Source: a virus. From it: a stretch of DNA of 64,000 nucleotides. Every line of letters starts with the position of its first letter. The first letter of the stretch is position 1. The stretch lies in IMG/VR virus record IMGVR_UViG_3300020202_000064, positions 1 through 64,000 of that record; one strand, written 5' to 3'. Below the pieces are notes generated by a model that worked only from the letters and a program-made list of their open reading frames with translations, did not search any database and had not been told where the DNA came from. Below, one piece after another: positions 38,369-57,415 of the stretch. The translations under genes and the position numbers were made by a program.

Positions 38369-38712
38369 TACTTTGTTTGCAAAGCCAACCAGAATGCATC
38401 AGGATGGTCAAGATATTTTTCTATATTTTTCTCGTCGCCAGTATCATCCTCTAACTCGTTCTCTGTCTGGGGTTTATTTTCTGCTTCCATAGTTGGAGCC
38501 GATAGCGGGCACGACTCCGCGACATTCTCATTACCAATGAGACATTCTACATCTGAATTATATCGGCAAAAATTTGTTTCTTGGCGGCTTGACGGGTAGT
38601 CTTTTTTAAACGTTTATGTTCCATATTCGAACATATCGGGCAACCAGAACCATGAGGTTTGGAATGCAGATTACCCGATTTTTTCTTTCGCAATCCATAG
38701 GGCTTCATAAAT

Positions 38713-38885: not shown

Positions 38886-39407
38886 TTAATTAAATATTTT
38901 CAAAAACATAAATACAAGTTTTACAACCCACTTAGGATAAACAATAACCTTAACATTACCACCTTCCACAGTCGGCTTATCGGCGTTTAAAACGCGAACA
39001 CGCACCGGCTTGCCATCTGAAGAAGTAACATTTCGTAAAACAACGTTTGTTGTGCGCGCCTTTGTAATTGGGGTGAAATTCCCCAAATCGATATCAACGG
39101 TCTTACCATGTTGTTCAATTATAACATTTTCAAGCGCAACCAAATCGCAACCACCTTTGATTGTAACAACATATTTACCAGCGCCATACAGCCGACAATT
39201 TTTGAGATGGATAAGTTGCGAGTAGCGCATGATATCAATTGCGTCTTCCTGAGAGCCGAAGATTGTGGTGTCGTATATCGCCGCTCGATTTACGTGGCTT
39301 AACTTCAGGGTATCACTGTAACTTTCATCAGGAGGGGAAATACTTTCCCCAATAATAACAACATCTTCAGTGTCAGCGTAACTTCGGTAATTTTTATCTG
39401 CGGCCAT
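38886..39407 (-). CDS. Pectin-lyase-like beta-helix protein
   Basis: EDAIDI and repeated I/V-x-N strands. Confidence 0.55.
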   Translation of the reverse strand: MAADKNYRSYADTEDVVIIGESISPPDESYSDTLKLSHVNRAAIYDTTIFGSQEDAIDIMRYSQLIHLKNCRLYGAGKYVVTIKGGCDLVALENVIIEQHGKTVDIDLGNFTPITKARTTNVVLRNVTSSDGKPVRVRVLNADKPTVEGGNVKVIVYPKWVVKLVFMFLKIFN

Positions 39408-39463
39408 ACTCTAATTTACACTAAAAATATTGCAAACGTAACATATTTTCTTGTAGAATAATT

Positions 39464-40445: not shown

Positions 40446-40559
40446 CTAAGCCCTTTTTTTTGGATGCTACCATTACATTAGAGCGGCTTCCAACTCCGCT
40501 TGCCGACTCGAACGGCTCTCCTTGTTTCGTAGACAATTTTTGTTTGCTGTATGGGCTAA
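40446..40559 (-). ncRNA. ACAGC-stem RNA 1 (Y-RNA-like, permuted tRNA core)
   Basis: TTAGCCC-ATACAGCAA...GGGCTTAG enclosing T arm GCCGTTCGAGTCGGC, acceptor-like hairpin, D-like TAATGTAATGGTAGCAT. Confidence 0.75.
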
Positions 40560-41178: not shown

Positions 41179-41339
41179 GAAAAATTATTTTCTTTGGCGA
41201 TTTCTAAATATGATTTTTCGCCGGGTTTTTGCTGTATAAAATAATCCAACACCCTTGCTATTTCAAGGGGGTCTGTTCCTCGCTCAACCGAAGTAATTGT
41301 TAACTCCAATAGTTCCTTTTTCTTTTGATTATTCATAGA

Positions 41340-42783: not shown

Positions 42784-42911
42784 CTAAGTTCATTTTTATA
42801 TTGTCGCCTAAACCAGACTAGGCTACTTCCGCATATTGTAAATGGTGCGGAAGGTGGGATTTGAACGCCACGTATAACAATTTCCATGAAATTGGATGCT
42901 GTTAGAACTTA
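42784..42911 (-). ncRNA. ACAGC-stem RNA 2 (permuted tRNA core)
   Basis: TAAGTTC-TAACAGCAT...GAACTTAG enclosing T arm, CTTCCGC-ACCA, linker, GCGGAAG, D arm. Confidence 0.8.
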
Positions 42912-46080: not shown

Positions 46081-46566
46081 CTATAGTGTTTGTGCGGCCA
46101 CCCTCGACCGTAAAGTAAATTCATAATGAAGCATCGTTGAACGGGACAATAACCCCGGCGACACTTCCCAAGCTTTCGTATTATTTAGTAAAGAAATTCC
46201 TGCGTGTTCAAACGCCGCATAAATCAATTCAGAGCAAAACCACTTGTCTTTCGAACCGCCCGATTCAGATTCACGAGAAAGGAAACGAAGTACCATGGTA
46301 ATGTCGTACTTCTTACCCACTTGAGCATAAAGGAACTGGCTGATTTTACGGAATTGTTCCGACGTAACTTCAGTCGAATACATATCAATATATTCGTCCT
46401 TCTTAAATTTGTACTTCTGGAATTTACGAACACCGTAAAAACGGGTGGCCTCAATTACGTCTTTTTCCAATGATATACTTACATGTGAATATTTACTACG
46501 AGTTTGCCAACGAATAATTTTATCAAAAATAGAGTTAGCTGAATGTAATCCAATGTAGATTTTCAT
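46081..46566 (-). CDS. Permuted papain-like (YaeF/YiiX) enzyme
   Basis: SKYSHV, GKKYD, WFCSEL, SP. Confidence 0.85.
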   Translation of the reverse strand: MKIYIGLHSANSIFDKIIRWQTRSKYSHVSISLEKDVIEATRFYGVRKFQKYKFKKDEYIDMYSTEVTSEQFRKISQFLYAQVGKKYDITMVLRFLSRESESGGSKDKWFCSELIYAAFEHAGISLLNNTKAWEVSPGLLSRSTMLHYEFTLRSRVAAQTL

Positions 46567-46586
46567 ACATTAAGTTACACTAAATT

Positions 46587-46664
46587 TGGCGCGGGAGGTG
46601 GGCTTCGAACCCACAACCTTGAAATTTAGAGTTTCCTGCTCTGAACCAGTTGAGCTACTCCCGC
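46587..46664 (-). tRNA. Amber suppressor tRNA(CTA)
   Basis: Canonical cloverleaf, loop CTCTAAA, G73, CCA. Confidence 0.88.
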
Positions 46665-47432: not shown

Positions 47433-47507
47433 TGGTAGCACACGGCGGCGTTTGAATCCGCTGCTCCAACTTATGAGGATGGCGAGTTACCTATACTCTA
47501 CGGTGCA
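47433..47507 (-). tRNA. tRNA-Met(CAT), irregular acceptor stem
   Basis: Loop CTCATAA, 1:72 mismatch, CCA. Confidence 0.65.
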
Positions 47508-47548: not shown

Positions 47549-47914
47549 TCAACCCTGCATCTTTTTCAACTTATCTTCTAACTGCTTTAATTGATATTCC
47601 AACTGATTCACTTTACCAGCATATTGCATGTTCTGGAATTGAACCAGAGCAATTTGTTTTTCAAGCTGTAATTTCTCGTTCAATAATTCATTATATTTAT
47701 CAGATACATCAGGATTTGCTTTTAACTTTGAAATCTCCAACTCCAATGAAGTAATTTTTTCTTTAAGAACATCTGATGCAGAAAGTTTTAAGAAAAAACT
47801 ATTAATAAATTCCAACTTGGTCTTTAAAATCGAAATTTCAGTATCAAGAGATTCAATTGTCGCTTTGAGTTGAAGGTTATTCGCTAATAAGGCGGTGCGT
47901 GTGACATAGGTCAT
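47549..47914 (-). CDS. Coiled-coil protein
   Basis: Heptad Leu pattern; GTGTAA motif 8 nt upstream. Confidence 0.55.
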   Translation of the reverse strand: MTYVTRTALLANNLQLKATIESLDTEISILKTKLEFINSFFLKLSASDVLKEKITSLELEISKLKANPDVSDKYNELLNEKLQLEKQIALVQFQNMQYAGKVNQLEYQLKQLEDKLKKMQG

Positions 47915-47937
47915 ATATATAGTTACACCAAAAATAA

Positions 47938-48271: not shown

Positions 48272-48276
48272 ATAAC

Positions 48277-48401
48277 GATGCCCAAATCCATCAACGCTGG
48301 ATAAACGCGAATTACTTTCATTCCACCTTTCGGCGCGGGCGTAATCGACCATTTTTACTTCACGTAGTAGTTGTTTTTATTTGATTTGCTGTGTGGGCGT
48401 C
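48277..48401 (-). ncRNA. ACAGC-stem RNA 3 (divergent stem)
   Basis: GACGCCC-ACACAGCAA...GGGCATC. Confidence 0.55.
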
Positions 48402-49178: not shown

Positions 49179-49257
49179 CTAAGTTCCTTGTGCCTTTTAT
49201 TAACCGGTGGCAAAGCCCGTCTCCTGATTATGTCATAGATATTGCTGTATGAACTTA
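49179..49257 (-). ncRNA. ACAGC-stem RNA 4
   Basis: TAAGTTC-ATACAGCAA...GAACTTAG. Confidence 0.72.
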
Positions 49258-49260
49258 AAA

Positions 49261-49399
49261 GTGGAACGTATGGGATTCGAACCCATATCGACGAACTTTA
49301 CGCCCGTCTCGTAAGATTATCTTATATATTCTTTTACCGGTGCGAATATATCACTTCATCAAACTACTTGTGGAGCTTTGACCATTAAGCTAACGTCCC
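49261..49399 (-). ncRNA. tRNA-like RNA with Ala identity and large insert replacing the anticodon arm
   Basis: Acceptor GGGACGT/ACGTTCC-A (G3:U70), canonical D and T arms, about 88 nt between them. Confidence 0.65.
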
Positions 49400-49435: not shown

Positions 49436-49582
49436 CTAAGCGCAACGCATTTACAGCGCGCGACTGAATGGCTTTTGTATTAGGCACCATCATTTCCTCG
49501 TGCAACCCGCCTCACTTCATCTTTCGATGGTGATTGGATGTTTGCACATCATCGATAAGTTTATTATCGCTGTATGCGCTTA
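49436..49582 (-). ncRNA. ACAGC-stem RNA 5
   Basis: TAAGCGC-ATACAGCGA...GCGCTTAG. Confidence 0.72.
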
Positions 49583-49586
49583 AAAC

Positions 49587-49728
49587 CTAAGTATAACGAA
49601 AAGTTTAGGCTCTTTTCGCGTTCCTAAAAAGCATGGAGAAGCTTTTCAATCTAACAGTTATGGAATGTCAGCCGGTGCCGCCCCGAAGGGTAGCGTCTTG
49701 TTAAGATAAGGATTGCTGTATATACTTA
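49587..49728 (-). ncRNA. ACAGC-stem RNA 6
   Basis: TAAGTAT-ATACAGCAA...ATACTTAG. Confidence 0.72.
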
Positions 49729-50120: not shown

Positions 50121-50470
50121 TGGTGGAGATGGAGGGCTTCGATTCCCTCGTGTCCGATACTTCGTATTTCCATTCTTGTTACATGCTTAGAATCACTTGA
50201 TAATATCGTTTTCGGTTTGATTCTACCAAACGACATTTGACGGTTATATAATCAGCTTCTATCAACCAGTCAATTTTAAAGCTGATTCCCGATGATGACG
50301 AGTGGCCCAATTTATCGGCGGTCAATTGGAACTCGGTTAGCCGCAATTAAGCAGCGTAAGCATAAACTTCTGTTTTCTTAGCGTTTATTTTGTGATACGT
50401 TTTACGACGTGGCATCATTGTCGGCATGGAATGTAAACCTACGTATTGGATAGAATCCAAATACATCCCC
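50121..50470 (-). ncRNA. ssrA: tmRNA
   Basis: GGGGATG.../...CATCTCCACCA with G3:U70; tag reading frame AKKTEVYAYAA* after ATAAAC. Confidence 0.92.
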
Positions 50471-50756: not shown

Positions 50757-50815
50757 CTAAGCGGGCGCAATTTTCCCTTTCGGGATGGCGATTTATATTT
50801 TGCTGTATCCGCTTG
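50757..50815 (-). ncRNA. ACAGC-stem RNA 7
   Basis: CAAGCGG-ATACAGCAA...CCGCTTAG. Confidence 0.7.
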
Positions 50816-50954: not shown

Positions 50955-51047
50955 CTAAGCTCTATTATTGTGCGGGCATCGAATCCCGCTCAATTCGTGT
51001 TTTTGAAACGAATTTTTATCCATTTAAGGTTTTGCTGTGAGAGCTTA
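50955..51047 (-). ncRNA. ACAGC-stem RNA 8
   Basis: TAAGCTC-TCACAGCAA...GAGCTTAG; T-arm-like GCGGGATTCGATGCCCGC. Confidence 0.72.
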
Positions 51048-51087: not shown

Positions 51088-51144
51088 CTAAGCGCATTTT
51101 GTTTTTCATTAATCATTGAATTTTTAATTCGCTGTTAGCGCTTA
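51088..51144 (-). ncRNA. ACAGC-stem RNA 9
   Basis: TAAGCGC-TAACAGCGA...GCGCTTAG. Confidence 0.7.
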
Positions 51145-52435: not shown

Positions 52436-52669
52436 TTAACTCAAAATTACACCCAAATCATTAACTTCGTTTTCAAACTCGTCGAACGTCGGTTCAATAT
52501 CTTCCATTGAGGCATCGATTCTTTTCTGCTTCATGCGACGATACTGAGTGTGACAGACTGCCAATCTTTGTTTATCATTACCATATTCCTTTTGCATCAA
52601 ATCCGAATCCATACAACGATTGATGAATTCAGTCTGTTTTTCATTGGACTTTGGTGTAGGCAGTGGCAT
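52436..52669 (-). CDS. Small conserved phage protein
   Basis: MPLPTP..E...FINRCM...EY....QRLAVC; GTGTAA motif 8 nt upstream. Confidence 0.65.
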   Translation of the reverse strand: MPLPTPKSNEKQTEFINRCMDSDLMQKEYGNDKQRLAVCHTQYRRMKQKRIDASMEDIEPTFDEFENEVNDLGVILS

Positions 52670-52699
52670 ACACTATATTACACTAAATGTCACCTAAAA

Positions 52700-52944: not shown

Positions 52945-53038
52945 CTAAGTATATTTTTATCACCCCATAAATTTGAAATGGCGGGGTGTGAAGGAATTGA
53001 ACCTTCTGTTTCCAGAAAAGTCATGCTGTTAATACTTA
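52945..53038 (-). ncRNA. ACAGC-stem RNA 10 (permuted T arm plus acceptor)
   Basis: TAAGTAT-TAACAGCAT...ATACTTAG enclosing GAAGGTTCAATTCCTTC, CACCCC-GCCA, linker, GGGGTG. Confidence 0.78.
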
Positions 53039-53166: not shown

Positions 53167-53289
53167 CTAAGTTCGTTTTTTTCGTTGTTCTGCTTTAAAC
53201 TAACTTGCTGAAATTGAAATTGGTGGCAAGTGAAGTGCGCTACGCTCCATCTCCGTCTTATGTGATGATTTAACCGCTGTTAGAACTTA
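53167..53289 (-). ncRNA. ACAGC-stem RNA 11 (permuted tRNA core)
   Basis: TAAGTTC-TAACAGCGG...GAACTTAG enclosing degenerate T arm, ACTTGCC-ACCA, linker, AGCAAGT, D-like arm. Confidence 0.75.
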
Positions 53290-54910: not shown

Positions 54911-55108
54911 AATAAAATTATTGAGCCATCAGACCACCAAGCGCAATGCCGCCGATTAGAGTAAATCCAATGTCGTTTTGAATACCACCAGCAATGATGA
55001 ACACAGCCGCAATTAATCCTAAAATCACGGCCCTAAACAAATCGTGTAGTTTCTTCTGCGTCATAAATAATGAAACCCGTCGCTGTTATACGACGGGAAT
55101 CAGTTTCC

Positions 55109-56644
55109 TTAAGCCTTAATCGGTTCGTACCTTTCGGTATTCACCGTCTGCAAGAACATGTCCCATGGGGAAGTAATCTTGCCACTCATAATTGTCTTGA
55201 GGATGCTTGGGGAAGCACCCGAACACAACATGACACCCTTTTCGTCAAACTTCACCGGACTGTCTGAGTAGGCGTTAACCTGCCAGAATACAATATCAGG
55301 AAGTTTATATCCTGCTTGCGCATATTGCCGCTTAATTGCTTCGTGGTTTGTTCCACCATTAACACAATTAAACTGCATATCAGATATGATAACAATCTTT
55401 GATGGCATTTCAGACTGTGGCACGTTATTTTGGATAGCGTGGCGAAGAATTGCTTGGAACGAAGATTGTACATTCGTGGAGCCGCCCCAATCAGCCGAAT
55501 TAAGGTTAATCAATTTCTCCTTGAGATTTCCGCCAACAACCTTCTGCAAACGGGAGTCGTCTGAGAAAGTTAGGAAATAACCGTTGAATGCGCCGCGATT
55601 ACGCTCTGCCGTATAAAGGGCGAGTGAAACGCAGATATCGATTGGGCTTACACTTTCGCCATAACGAACACCCAAATTTCCCATGGAGCCGGAAACGTCC
55701 GCAACAACAAGGATATTGTCGTTCTTCCCTTCTGTGTAGTCGGGAAGTGCATTCCATTGCGCTTCGATTGTACGAAGGTCGTTACCGTCCTTCTGTGTAA
55801 TTCCGCGCATCAAATCATACGGATATAGCGTTGCAGAATTAATCTTCGCTTCGCCCTTCTCGACCTTGGTCAAGAACTTCTCATAGCGCTTTGGGTCGTG
55901 CTTGTTAAAGGCAGACTTGTAAATAAGCGCAGCACGAGATGGTACTTGCTCAAAGTTAATCTTGCTCCATTCACCACTGGTCATCAACCGTTCAACGATA
56001 CCGATTTCCTCACGAAGACCGGACAACATCTTACGATATGCCTTTGGTGACATTTTCATTGCGGCGCGAACCTTTTCAGCCAAACGACGTGTCGTCGCGC
56101 TGGAAGCCTGCGCAGATGGTGCCCATTTTGCAGCCAATGTAATCGCTTCGCCCTTTGCCTTCTTATAAGCATCGGTCTTCAATTGGGACGCAACGAAAAC
56201 CAATGCATCCTTCTCCAATGGAGTGCCCTCCAAGGATTCAAGAACATTGTCGAAACGGGTATATTCAGGAACGTGCTGAATAAGCTTCTTTGCCACAGGC
56301 GCGTCATTCTTCGCGAGCCAGTTAAGACCCAAGCGAAAAAGACGACGTTCACCCTGTCCGCCGCGCACGTCACCCAAATAGAATAACGTCCTTAGTGCAA
56401 GGGTTTTATCTTCTGCATATGCGGCGCTGAAAAGCTTTGTAACTTCGGCATCGGCTTGATTGCGCAATGCGCCACCTCGCGAGAACAAGTCCAGCAAGGA
56501 TGTGCCAGTGGTTGAATGTGATACTGCGCCGTTTAAGGTTGTAGTATCTTTCGTTTGCATAGCGCTAATAAGCGCATTCTGCTTCTTAGGGGTTGCAGTG
56601 TTACGGGTAAACTGCCCCAATGAGTTTCTCTTTATATTCTTCAT
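55109..56644 (-). CDS. Ro60/TROVE-like helical domain plus vWA protein (DUF2828-type)
   Basis: DVRGGQGERR, LAAKWAPS, VPSRA, LYPYD, MIDAS DVSGSM, TFS, ISDMQF. Confidence 0.85.
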   Translation of the reverse strand: MKNIKRNSLGQFTRNTATPKKQNALISAMQTKDTTTLNGAVSHSTTGTSLLDLFSRGGALRNQADAEVTKLFSAAYAEDKTLALRTLFYLGDVRGGQGERRLFRLGLNWLAKNDAPVAKKLIQHVPEYTRFDNVLESLEGTPLEKDALVFVASQLKTDAYKKAKGEAITLAAKWAPSAQASSATTRRLAEKVRAAMKMSPKAYRKMLSGLREEIGIVERLMTSGEWSKINFEQVPSRAALIYKSAFNKHDPKRYEKFLTKVEKGEAKINSATLYPYDLMRGITQKDGNDLRTIEAQWNALPDYTEGKNDNILVVADVSGSMGNLGVRYGESVSPIDICVSLALYTAERNRGAFNGYFLTFSDDSRLQKVVGGNLKEKLINLNSADWGGSTNVQSSFQAILRHAIQNNVPQSEMPSKIVIISDMQFNCVNGGTNHEAIKRQYAQAGYKLPDIVFWQVNAYSDSPVKFDEKGVMLCSGASPSILKTIMSGKITSPWDMFLQTVNTERYEPIKA

Positions 56645-56647
56645 AAA

Positions 56648-56684
56648 CTAAGTAATTTTTAATTGTTAATGCTGACATTACTTA
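56648..56684 (-). promoter_or_regulatory. Minimal ACAGC-stem copy in the 5' UTR of the Ro60-like gene
   Basis: TAAGTAA-TGTCAGCAT...TTACTTAG-TTT-ATG. Confidence 0.65.
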
Positions 56685-56746
56685 AATAACTAAATTCTAC
56701 GTTGTAGGACATTTTAGTGTCCGTCAAGACATTTGTGCAAATTATT

Positions 56747-57415
56747 TTATGCCGCTGCCATAGCGCCCATCAAATATTCTGCCCATTCATGACGAGGCGT
56801 CACGTTAGGGGGAAGAGTGTAGTGAACGGGACGAATTTTCATCTTTGCTTCGATTGGCTTGCCAAAGATATCCAATTTGGGCATGGCGTGTCCAGCACGG
56901 GAATTACAAGACTTGCAAGCAAGCGCAATGTTATCCTCGTGATTTTTACCACCAAAAGCCTTTGAATGAATATGTTCGCGACTAGCCTCACTCAGTTTGA
57001 TTTTCGTATAGCAGAAGCAGCACTTACCATCATAGTAATCATATACTTCTCTAAGTGGTGGCAATGCAACTTGGCCATCCTTGTTTTCCTTTCGTTCCTT
57101 CAGCAGTTTTTTCCGCTTGAAGAAGAAATCTTCGTTTGCAACAAAGATGGTTGGAATAACCCAAATATTATCCTTGTACGAAGCATTAAAGCCGCTCCGC
57201 ATGAAGGGTTGGTCAGGTAAAACCGAAATGTTTCGAGAAATGTAACGGTCCCACTTATATGGAACACCATTGGCATCGATACCCGTCCCCTTACCCTTCA
57301 GTAGAGAGTAGAACGCCGCCCGAGCCGTAGCGATACCAAATGGCATGTACGCCGGGTCAAGGAGTAGCGTCGTTATTTGTTCTGGATTTACAACTTTCAT
57401 TTCAGACGTGAGCAT
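56747..57415 (-). CDS. HNH endonuclease (McrA-like)
   Basis: CCFC, EHIHSKAFGG, NIALACKSCN. Confidence 0.85.
   Translation of the reverse strand: MLTSEMKVVNPEQITTLLLDPAYMPFGIATARAAFYSLLKGKGTGIDANGVPYKWDRYISRNISVLPDQPFMRSGFNASYKDNIWVIPTIFVANEDFFFKRKKLLKERKENKDGQVALPPLREVYDYYDGKCCFCYTKIKLSEASREHIHSKAFGGKNHEDNIALACKSCNSRAGHAMPKLDIFGKPIEAKMKIRPVHYTLPPNVTPRHEWAEYLMGAMAAA

What the first reader, a model, noticed from the sequence alone, without database searches (positions are those of the whole stretch)
56642..56684. Cargo-less copy of the RNA handle covers the translation start of the Ro60-like gene (autoregulation)
The only copy outside the tRNA island reads TAAGTAA-TGTCAGCAT-TAACAATTAAAAA-TTACTTAG-TTT-ATG. 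It ends 3 nt before the start codon and covers the ribosome-binding region. This positionally links the RNA family to this protein. Inference: free protein represses its own translation once the decoy RNAs are saturated, as ribosomal proteins do with rRNA-mimicking operators.
Basis: partly seen in the sequence, partly recalled or inferred. Interest (0 to 1): 0.78.

Follow-up and report, generated by a model that had tools for sequence, protein, structure and literature searches.

The report
Partner-RNA handle on Ro60-like gene's start
A phage gene for a Ro60-shaped RNA-binding protein carries, three bases before its start codon, a stripped-down copy of the short RNA "handle" that marks the phage's tRNA-mimic small RNAs, and most related phages keep a handle in the same place, so the protein probably recognises and limits its own messenger, although binding has not been shown.

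Summary
On the minus strand, 56685-56648 forms a 9-bp AU-rich hairpin with a 20-nt loop that starts with GUCAGCAU. It ends 3 nt before ATG 56644 of a 511-aa DUF2828+vWA gene.

It is a real family member, not chance. A covariance model built only from other phages' DUF2828 leaders ranks it third in the window (24.1 bits, E about 0.005). All better or similar hits are the inter-tRNA copies. The other 30 kb of the contig holds none.

A same-strand element lies within 300 nt upstream of the gene in 53 of 79 and 45 of 55 homologous loci, against 2-8 in controls. In about half of those loci it ends 25 nt or less from the start codon. The closest relatives keep a cargo-less hairpin there, maintained by compensatory stem changes.

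The protein model (pLDDT 91) matches only Ro60 structures over its full length.

Translational autoregulation remains an inference, which I rate at about 45%. In Felix O1 and LeBron the RNAs lie downstream of the gene, and in Bacillus and Listeria phages far upstream, so linkage is universal but leader embedding is not.

Neither Rfam nor the papers I could search describe this RNA family. This scan has already noted the same pairing, and leader copies, on other phage DNA.

The parts
56647..56686 (-). Minimal ('cargo-less') handle element in the 5' leader of the Ro60-like gene. The helix pairs 56685-56677 with 56656-56648. The loop is 56676-56657, and the core GUCAGCAU lies at 56676-56669.
   Evidence: Sequence; RNAfold helix; covariance model R1, 24.1 bits, E 0.0046
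56642..56644 (-). Start codon ATG of the DUF2828 gene, 3 nt after the helix
   Evidence: ORF list; N-terminal homology with relatives
55109..56644 (-). Ro60-like protein gene (511 aa): a DUF2828 helical-repeat part followed by a DUF7788 vWA domain
   Evidence: Pfam PF11443 2e-37 and PF25043 1.4e-42; AF2 pLDDT 91.3; Foldseek top 13 hits all Ro60, best E 5e-10, TM 0.57-0.61
56694..56723 (-). Promoter-like site (CGGACA, 18-nt spacer, TAGAAT). It would start the transcript at about 56687, the base of the hairpin. Consensus match only.
   Evidence: analogous sigma-70-type promoters directly before the first element in L009 and L014
55065..55097 (-). Terminator-like GC hairpin plus T-rich tail just after the gene's stop codon
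   Evidence: Sequence
51088..51144 (-). Best family copy in the window; short insert (33 nt)
   Evidence: R1 37.3 bits, E 3.5e-6
53167..53289 (-). Family copy directly after tRNA-Pro; carries a closed acceptor-like stem
52945..53038 (-). Family copy directly after tRNA-Arg; carries a permuted T arm plus acceptor
50955..51047 (-). Family copy ending 5 nt before tRNA-Ile
50757..50814 (-). Family copy with a variant stem
49587..49728 (-). Family copy directly after tRNA-Ser
49436..49582 (-). Family copy, in tandem with the previous one
49179..49257 (-). Family copy ending 6 nt before tRNA-Asn
   Evidence: R1 24.9 bits, E 0.003
42784..42911 (-). Family copy carrying a circularly permuted tRNA-like body; ends 5 nt before tRNA-His
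41184..41245 (-). Family copy with an entirely different 8-bp stem but the same core
40446..40559 (-). Family copy with a variant stem; ends 3 nt before tRNA-Leu
48276..48401 (-). Degenerate family copy (weak)
   Evidence: (13.6 bits)

Best explanation
The hairpin is the bare protein-recognition module of an undescribed phage RNA family: a terminal clamp helix followed by single-stranded (A)CAGCA(A). The family travels with Ro60-shaped DUF2828/vWA proteins. In the tRNA island the same module closes small RNAs that carry tRNA-like bodies and are probably released by tRNA processing. Here the module stands alone as the 5' leader of the protein's own mRNA.

Shown: family membership, conservation of this leader position in relatives with compensatory stem changes, and the Ro60 fold of the protein.

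Inferred: the protein binds the handle. Because the helix ends 3 nt from the AUG in a phage that relies on open AU-rich leaders rather than SD sites, a bound protein would clamp an otherwise weak helix (about -6 kcal/mol) and keep the 30S subunit off. That would give negative feedback, balancing protein against the pool of free handle RNAs that compete for it.
For: 1. Model R1 was built from 47 elements of other phages and contains no window sequence. It ranks the leader hairpin third in the window (24.1 bits, E 0.0046). Its top eight hits are all minus-strand copies in the tRNA island or this leader, and there are none in the other 30 kb of the contig.
2. Stems covary within the window: eight different stem sequences share one core. 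They also covary across phages: 90% of cells paired, 7 of 8 pairs with double changes, covariation score 0.738 against 0.233 in shuffles.
3. A same-strand element lies within 300 nt upstream of DUF2828 genes in 53 of 79 loci, against 4 on the reverse strand, 8 in CDS and 4 in shuffles. An independent set gives 45 of 55 against 2 and 2.
4. All 138 of 138 R1 hits in 75 IMG/VR loci are on the gene's strand and hug the gene.
5. The 3' arm ends 12 nt or less from the start codon in 20 of 45 loci and 25 nt or less in 27 of 45. In SD-using phages the SD abuts or overlaps the 3' arm, as in L003, L039, L041 and L154.
6. The closest relatives keep a short leader hairpin 4-10 nt before the ATG, with compensatory changes in the upper stem pairs: L014 (60% aa identity), L094 (54%), L095 (50%) and L001 (47%).
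7. The 5' side has about 60 nt of spacer holding a promoter-like site, while the 3' side has 3 nt.
8. The protein has a Ro60 fold: the 13 best PDB matches are all Ro60, Rsr or phiLo Ro60 over the full length.
9. Established precedent: canonical phage Ro60 binds Y-like RNAs encoded just upstream of its gene (PMC12135203). Autogenous translational control by mimicry of the primary RNA ligand is known for r-proteins, ThrRS and the MS2 coat protein (established knowledge).
Against: No binding or expression data exist, and the tools for RNA-seq runs and for closer relatives were unavailable.

The hairpin is not more stable than shuffles.

The core deviates at two of the seven conserved positions (U for A at both ends), so it could be a decaying copy.

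Leader embedding is not universal. The RNAs lie downstream of the gene in LeBron and Felix O1, and 85-150 nt upstream with apparent separate promoters in Bacillus, Listeria and Enterococcus phages.

Island copies also abut their neighbours within 1-6 nt, so tight spacing is partly plain genome compaction.

Leader copies are not systematically weaker sites than free copies.

If the true start were TTG 56620, the helix would end 27 nt upstream.
Confidence: 0.48

Rival explanations
1. The leader copy is just one more partner-RNA gene, or a minimal version of one. It sits next to the protein gene so that RNA and protein are made together, and it is then cut off or simply tolerated. It has no regulatory role, and the short spacer reflects phage genome compaction.
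For: The RNAs are linked to the gene in every position: upstream near, upstream far, or downstream. Canonical Ro60 loci also place Y-like RNAs just upstream of the gene (PMC12135203) or within 4 kb on the same strand (PMC4201824). Island copies are packed as tightly against tRNAs. Many leader-proximal copies carry a perfect core and 18-45-nt inserts, like free copies.
Against: With 3-6 nt between helix and AUG and no terminator, the element cannot be a separate transcription unit in this clade, and any bound protein would sit inside the 30S footprint. The element keeps this exact position across 47-60% aa-identity relatives while its loop sequence has diverged completely.
Confidence: 0.3
2. 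The hairpin acts positively or independently of the protein. It could be a 5'-terminal stem-loop that protects the mRNA from 5'-end-dependent decay, a processing signal shared with the tRNA-island transcripts, or a site where the nascent protein loads onto RNA in cis.
For: A promoter-like site would put the transcript start at the base of the helix. The same holds in L009 and L014. 5'-terminal hairpins are known mRNA stabilisers (established knowledge).
Against: The helix is AU-rich and weak. The conserved single-stranded core, not only the helix, is kept in leader copies, which argues for sequence-specific recognition.
Confidence: 0.14
3. It is a chance AU-rich palindrome or a dead relic of a duplicated island element.
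For: The energy z-score is not significant. The core has two deviations. A 33-nt stretch is 73% identical to part of copy 51144-51088 (family D18).
Against: The independent model gives E 0.0046, the third best hit of the window. An orthologous hairpin with compensatory pairs is present in L014, L094, L095 and L001. The variant core UCAGCAU recurs in other leader-proximal copies (4 of 33 against 3 of 170).
Confidence: 0.05

Closest known systems
Ro60 (Rsr/TROVE+vWA) with Y RNAs: bacterial and mycobacteriophage YrlA (Chen et al. 2014, PMC4201824) and Thermus phage phiLo Ro60 with Yrl1/Yrl2 (PMC12135203)
   Same: A ring-plus-vWA protein fold. Partner-type RNAs whose 5' and 3' ends pair, with a conserved motif on the 5' strand side and tRNA-like modules. 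RNA genes lie next to the protein gene on the same strand, directly upstream in phiLo.
   Different: The protein belongs to another sequence family (Pfam DUF2828/DUF7788, not TROVE; 12-18% identity to Ro60; no PDB hit by sequence). The RNA motif is (A)CAGCA(A), not GNCGAA/CGAA. There is no Rfam Y_RNA or YrlA match at E up to 5. No Ro60 system in the papers I read has its handle embedded at the protein's own start codon, and 'autoregulat' does not occur in PMC12135203.
Autogenous translational operators that mimic the protein's main RNA ligand (E. coli thrS operator, ribosomal-protein operators, MS2/PP7 coat protein-replicase hairpin; named from established knowledge, not tested here)
   Same: A copy of the protein's presumed RNA ligand lies inside the translation-initiation region of its own mRNA. 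Free ligand RNAs would compete with it, giving feedback.
   Different: Here binding and repression are only inferred. The operator is a full family member by covariance model rather than a loose mimic. The arrangement is present in only about half of the homologous loci.
Dictyostelium Class I RNAs (Rfam RF01414; Kjellin et al. 2021, PMC7919456)
   Same: A short covarying stem joins the 5' and 3' ends, an approximately 11-nt single-stranded motif sits next to the 5' strand, and the rest is variable. The paper reports conserved T, C, C, A, A at motif positions 3, 6, 9, 10, 11, an AAG start and a CUGU end. The phage consensus fits this pattern, and the window leader copy fits 4 of the 5 positions.
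   Different: Class I RNAs are eukaryotic nuclear genes with a DUSE promoter, and their known binder is an RRM protein (Rnp1A). There is no RF01414 match here at E up to 5. The resemblance is a lead, not a membership.

Membership tests
DUF2828-linked 'clamp helix + ACAGCAA' handle RNAs (undescribed; defined here by alignment A2 and model R1) | Terminal helix of 6-9 bp closing the element | tested here: met
   9 bp, 56685-56677 with 56656-56648
DUF2828-linked 'clamp helix + ACAGCAA' handle RNAs (undescribed; defined here by alignment A2 and model R1) | Invariant CAGCA within 0-3 nt of the 5' arm (consensus ACAGCAA) | tested here: met
   The CAGCA columns are invariant in A2. The window copy has UCAGCAU, with both flanking A replaced by U. 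The same variant is seen in L004, L016 and L025.
DUF2828-linked 'clamp helix + ACAGCAA' handle RNAs (undescribed; defined here by alignment A2 and model R1) | Significant score with a model built without the candidate | tested here: met
   24.1 bits, E 0.0046 (rough calibration), rank 3 of the window
DUF2828-linked 'clamp helix + ACAGCAA' handle RNAs (undescribed; defined here by alignment A2 and model R1) | Same strand as, and next to, a DUF2828 gene | tested here: met
   3 nt upstream of the gene here; 138 of 138 hits co-oriented with the gene elsewhere
Y RNA / YrlA (Rfam Y_RNA, YrlA) | Match to the Rfam covariance models | tested here: not met
   No hit at the gathering threshold or at E up to 5; none in six related loci at E up to 1
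Y RNA / YrlA (Rfam Y_RNA, YrlA) | GNCGAAN0-1G / CGAA Ro-binding motif on the 5' strand (PMC4201824, PMC12135203) | tested here: not met
   Absent from 56686-56647 and from the family consensus
Y RNA / YrlA (Rfam Y_RNA, YrlA) | Partner protein is a TROVE-domain Ro60 | tested here: inconclusive
   No TROVE Pfam hit, but a full-length Ro60 fold match
Dictyostelium Class I RNA (RF01414) | Match to RF01414 | tested here: not met
   Not among matches at E up to 5
Dictyostelium Class I RNA (RF01414) | 6-bp terminal stem plus adjacent 11-nt motif with T3, C6, C9, A10, A11 | tested here: inconclusive
   The stem is present, and 4 of the 5 conserved positions fit in this copy. The motif letters themselves are not printed in the paper's text.
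Autogenous translational operator (functional class) | Operator overlaps the translation-initiation region | tested here: met
   The helix ends 3 nt before the ATG and there is no SD. The start codon is supported by homology.
Autogenous translational operator (functional class) | The protein binds the operator and represses its own translation | not testable with these tools
   Needs EMSA, toeprinting or a reporter assay. Complex prediction takes no RNA.

The most novel reading that the evidence does not exclude
DUF2828 proteins and their handle RNAs form a second, undescribed Ro60/Y-RNA-type particle of phages. In many lineages the protein reads the same handle on its own mRNA, which would set protein level to the supply of tRNA-mimic handle RNAs. 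The 40-nt leader would then be the minimal natural binding site for the whole family.
Probability: 0.4. Interest if true: 0.78.

Novelty: new variant of a known kind. Interest (0 to 1): 0.62.

Why it matters
Ro60/Y-RNA particles are a long-studied RNA quality-control system, yet how Ro60-like proteins choose their RNAs outside the canonical family is unknown. Here a naturally minimal 40-nt site holds only the features shared by a whole RNA family. It sits in the messenger of a Ro60-shaped protein found in several thousand phage and metagenome sequences (3751 homologues at E <= 1e-20), including Felix O1, Listeria P100-like, Campylobacter and mycobacteriophage lineages. That makes the protein-RNA pairing directly testable with one short RNA, and it suggests a simple feedback circuit. 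It would also give a function to DUF2828 and to the unannotated spacers of phage tRNA islands.

Tried and rejected
Energy test of the hairpin: not significant, so energy was dropped as evidence.

Rfam: no family matches at the gathering threshold or at E up to 5.

PDB search by sequence: nothing.

Generic stem-plus-CAGC scanner on the whole contig: about 20 hits per strand, so it is too unspecific on its own. I used it only with controls.

A hit at 55095-55059 turned out to be the gene's terminator, not a family copy.

A shared ATTTAGT promoter-like word before the hairpin and before some island ORFs: 8 minus-strand and 6 plus-strand matches with no consistent context, so I rejected it.

The idea that leader copies are generally weaker sites: not supported.

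Literature searches for DUF2828, Ro-like phage RNA-binding proteins, the motif letters, and TROVE/vWA phage RNAs found no description of this RNA family.

Full report
**What is there**

The window is part of a 94-kb virus record (GC 41%) with nearly all genes on the minus strand. A tRNA island at 36.9-53.4 kb holds 31 ARAGORN tRNAs, a few more Rfam tRNA hits and a tmRNA.

The finding lies 3.3 kb upstream of the island, between an HNH endonuclease gene (56747-57415) and a 511-aa ORF (55109-56644). That ORF matches Pfam DUF2828 and DUF7788, a vWA domain.

RNAfold pairs 56685-56677 with 56656-56648, giving 9 bp including one U-G. This leaves a 20-nt loop that begins GUCAGCAU. The helix ends 3 nt before the ATG.

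By energy alone the hairpin is unremarkable: -6.7 kcal/mol, z = +0.5.

**The family inside the window**

Thirteen minus-strand elements share one design:
- a 7-8-bp terminal helix, usually TAAG.../...CTTAG;
- the core (W)(A)ACAGC(A/G)(A/T) directly after the 5' arm;
- an insert of 13-123 nt;
- the 3' arm.

The helix has eight different sequences that always pair, and one copy (41245-41184) has a wholly different stem with the same core.

Twelve copies fill spacers of the tRNA island. They start 0-2 nt after a tRNA 3' end or end 3-6 nt before the next tRNA, so tRNA processing would release them.

Several inserts are permuted tRNA-like bodies, in the order T arm, 3' acceptor-CCA, linker, 5' acceptor, D arm (for example 42911-42784). 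This is the layout of bacterial YrlA Y RNAs (PMC4201824).

The leader copy is the shortest, with a 13-nt insert and no body.

**Is the leader copy a true member?**

I built alignment A2 from 47 elements found upstream of DUF2828 genes in other phages and metagenome contigs, with no window sequence. I gave it the 8-bp closing helix and built model R1.

On A2 the helix is 90% paired, 7 of 8 pairs show double changes, and the covariation score is 0.738 against 0.233 in shuffles (0 of 500 shuffles as high). Sliding the partner strand destroys the pairing. These elements were picked for complementarity, so this result is descriptive rather than an independent test.

The independent test is the search with filters off over the whole window, both strands. 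The best hits are 51146-51087 (37.3 bits), 49259-49178 (24.9 bits) and the leader hairpin 56686-56647 (24.1 bits, E 0.0046). The next five hits are further island copies, and everything else scores 13 bits or less.

The remaining 30 kb of the contig has nothing above 9.5 bits. So 'the only copy outside the island' is correct for the sequence held.

They do.
- A simple scanner (stem of 6 bp or more, plus a CAGC core) finds a same-strand element within 300 nt upstream of the gene in 53 of 79 non-identical loci. Controls give 4 on the reverse strand, 8 inside the CDS and 4 after shuffling.
- A second, non-overlapping IMG/VR set gives 45 of 55 against 2 and 2.
- With R1, all 138 hits (E up to 0.05) in 75 IMG/VR loci are on the gene's strand and cluster just 5' or just 3' of the gene.
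- The 3' arm ends 12 nt or less from the start codon in 20 of 45 loci and 25 nt or less in 27 of 45. In SD-using phages the SD follows or overlaps the 3' arm.

The closest relatives I could read keep a short leader hairpin at the same place, while the loop sequence has diverged and the upper stem pairs have changed on both strands:

| Locus | aa identity | Spacer to ATG |
|---|---|---|
| L014 | 60% | 4 nt |
| L094 | 54% | 4 nt (6 from the last paired base) |
| L095 | 50% | 10 nt |
| L001 | 47% | 2 nt (4 from the last paired base) |

Spacers are counted as in the window, from the G that follows the 3' arm.

Cultivated phages show the limits of the pattern:
- Synechococcus phage B23 and Campylobacter phage F370 have leader-proximal copies.
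- Bacillus (Thrax1, PK-3), Listeria LMTA-34 and Enterococcus TJE1 have one to three tandem copies 85-150 nt upstream.
- Mycobacteriophage LeBron and Felix O1 have them downstream of the gene.
- Aeromonas phage Aeh1 shows none at E up to 1.

**The protein**

Sequence search of the PDB finds nothing. An AlphaFold2 model from 63 homologues has pLDDT 91.3 and pTM 0.88.

Its 13 best Foldseek matches in the PDB are all Ro60: Xenopus 1YVR, 1YVP and 2I91; Deinococcus Rsr 2NVO; Thermus phage phiLo 9KOP and 9L5Y; human 9NEN. They align over the full length at 12-18% identity, with best E 5e-10 and TM 0.57-0.61. Only isolated vWA domains follow.

'Ro60-like' is therefore justified by fold, not by family membership.

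**Start codon and ribosome binding**

A public gene call starts at TTG 56620 (P0001, 503 aa). However, the N-terminal MK-N-IK-R resembles the MK-K-T-IK-K tails of P0003, P0017, P0036 and L094. The relatives also place their ATG right after the hairpin, so ATG 56644 is the likelier start.

Only 13 of 64 long ORFs have even a loose SD. Initiation in this phage apparently depends on open AU-rich leaders, which is exactly what the hairpin loop and 3' arm are made of.

A promoter-like site at 56723-56694 would start the transcript at the base of the helix. This is a consensus match only. Thrax1 and L014 show the same layout with better promoters.

**How it most likely works**

Shown:
- a bare copy of the family's only shared module forms the leader of the Ro60-like mRNA;
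- this position is conserved in the clade.

Inferred:
- the module is the protein's binding site;
- the unbound helix is weak enough to be opened by the ribosome;
- a bound protein would clamp it within the 30S footprint and shut off initiation;
- free handle RNAs from the island would compete, so synthesis stops once protein exceeds RNA.

I rate this at about 0.48.

The main rival (0.30) is that the copy is simply a co-transcribed partner-RNA gene, whose tight spacing reflects compaction. Island copies are packed just as tightly, and in other lineages the RNAs sit elsewhere.

A protective or processing role of a 5'-terminal hairpin (0.14), and chance or a dead relic (0.05), are less likely.

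I found no sign that leader copies are generally weaker sites: 19 of 33 against 78 of 170 carry a perfect ACAGCAA. The variant UCAGCAU seen here is, however, enriched near start codons (4 of 33 against 3 of 170, with some near-duplicate loci).

**Comparison with what is known**

The system works like Ro60 with Y RNAs. Phage phiLo Ro60 binds two Y-like RNAs encoded just upstream of its gene (PMC12135203), and YrlA RNAs combine a Ro-binding stem with a tRNA-like module (PMC4201824).

It is not a member of those families:
- there is no TROVE Pfam hit;
- there is no CGAA motif;
- there is no Rfam match.

The RNA design also resembles the Dictyostelium Class I RNAs: a 6-bp terminal stem, an adjacent 11-nt motif with conserved T, C, C, A, A at positions 3, 6, 9, 10 and 11, an AAG start and a CUGU end (PMC7919456). 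RF01414 does not match, and the biology differs.

The proposed control logic is that of classical autogenous translational operators (thrS, r-proteins, MS2 coat), which I name from established knowledge.

**Novelty and earlier notes**

I found no paper or Rfam family for the RNA family.

This scan has noted the DUF2828/ACAGCAA pairing in at least 56 other genomes, and leader copies in several. Those notes gave me the Class I and phiLo leads, which I checked in the papers. All counts and models in this report are my own.

**Limits**

There are no binding, expression or 5'-end data. R1 E-values are rough because of the short calibration.

Noticed in passing
window 55065-55097 (-): The terminator-like hairpin right after the DUF2828 stop codon has a loop and 3' arm that spell the family core TAACAGCGA. 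This is probably coincidence, but it is identical to the core of copy 51144-51088.
   Followed up: partly
window 51097-51129 vs 56632-56664: A 33-nt stretch of island copy 51144-51088 is 73% identical to the leader loop, 3' arm and first codons. Both contain ATGAA(A/G)AA, which reads MKN. This could be a duplication of the leader into the island or the reverse, or AU-rich chance.
   Followed up: no
window 56620: A public gene call (P0001, 503 aa) starts this protein at TTG 56620, eight codons inside the ORF. N-terminal homology favours ATG 56644.
   Followed up: yes
L011 2117-2174 and 2319-2368; L176 2611-2681 and 2778-2839: In mycobacteriophage LeBron and Salmonella phage Felix O1 (FO1a) the handle elements lie in the unannotated gap downstream of the DUF2828 gene rather than upstream.
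   Followed up: partly
window 46564-46585, 52667-52688, 47912-47933, 39405-39426 (+ coordinates): A 22-nt repeat family (repeat finder family D8). At three of the four sites examined, on the minus strand, it ends in the ATG of a small ORF just downstream of a tRNA (after tRNA-Pyl/CTA, tRNA-Tyr and tRNA-Leu). It may be a phage promoter or a translation signal.
   Followed up: no
window 46587-46664 and 50121-50470 (-): The island contains a suppressor-type tRNA with anticodon CTA (called Pyl by ARAGORN) and a full-length tmRNA (92 bits).
   Followed up: no
window 49262-49399, 47437-47506, 38497-38567 (-): Rfam calls three extra tRNA-like genes that ARAGORN misses. One (49262-49399) carries an insert of about 65 nt.
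   Followed up: no
whole contig: Only 13 of 64 long ORFs have even a loose Shine-Dalgarno match and leaders are AU-rich, which suggests a host with SD-independent initiation.
   Followed up: partly
L008 2477-2758: Synechococcus phage B23 has at least three further handle elements interleaved with tRNAs just downstream of its DUF2828 gene. One of those tRNAs is a 110-nt 'tRNA-Undet'.
   Followed up: no
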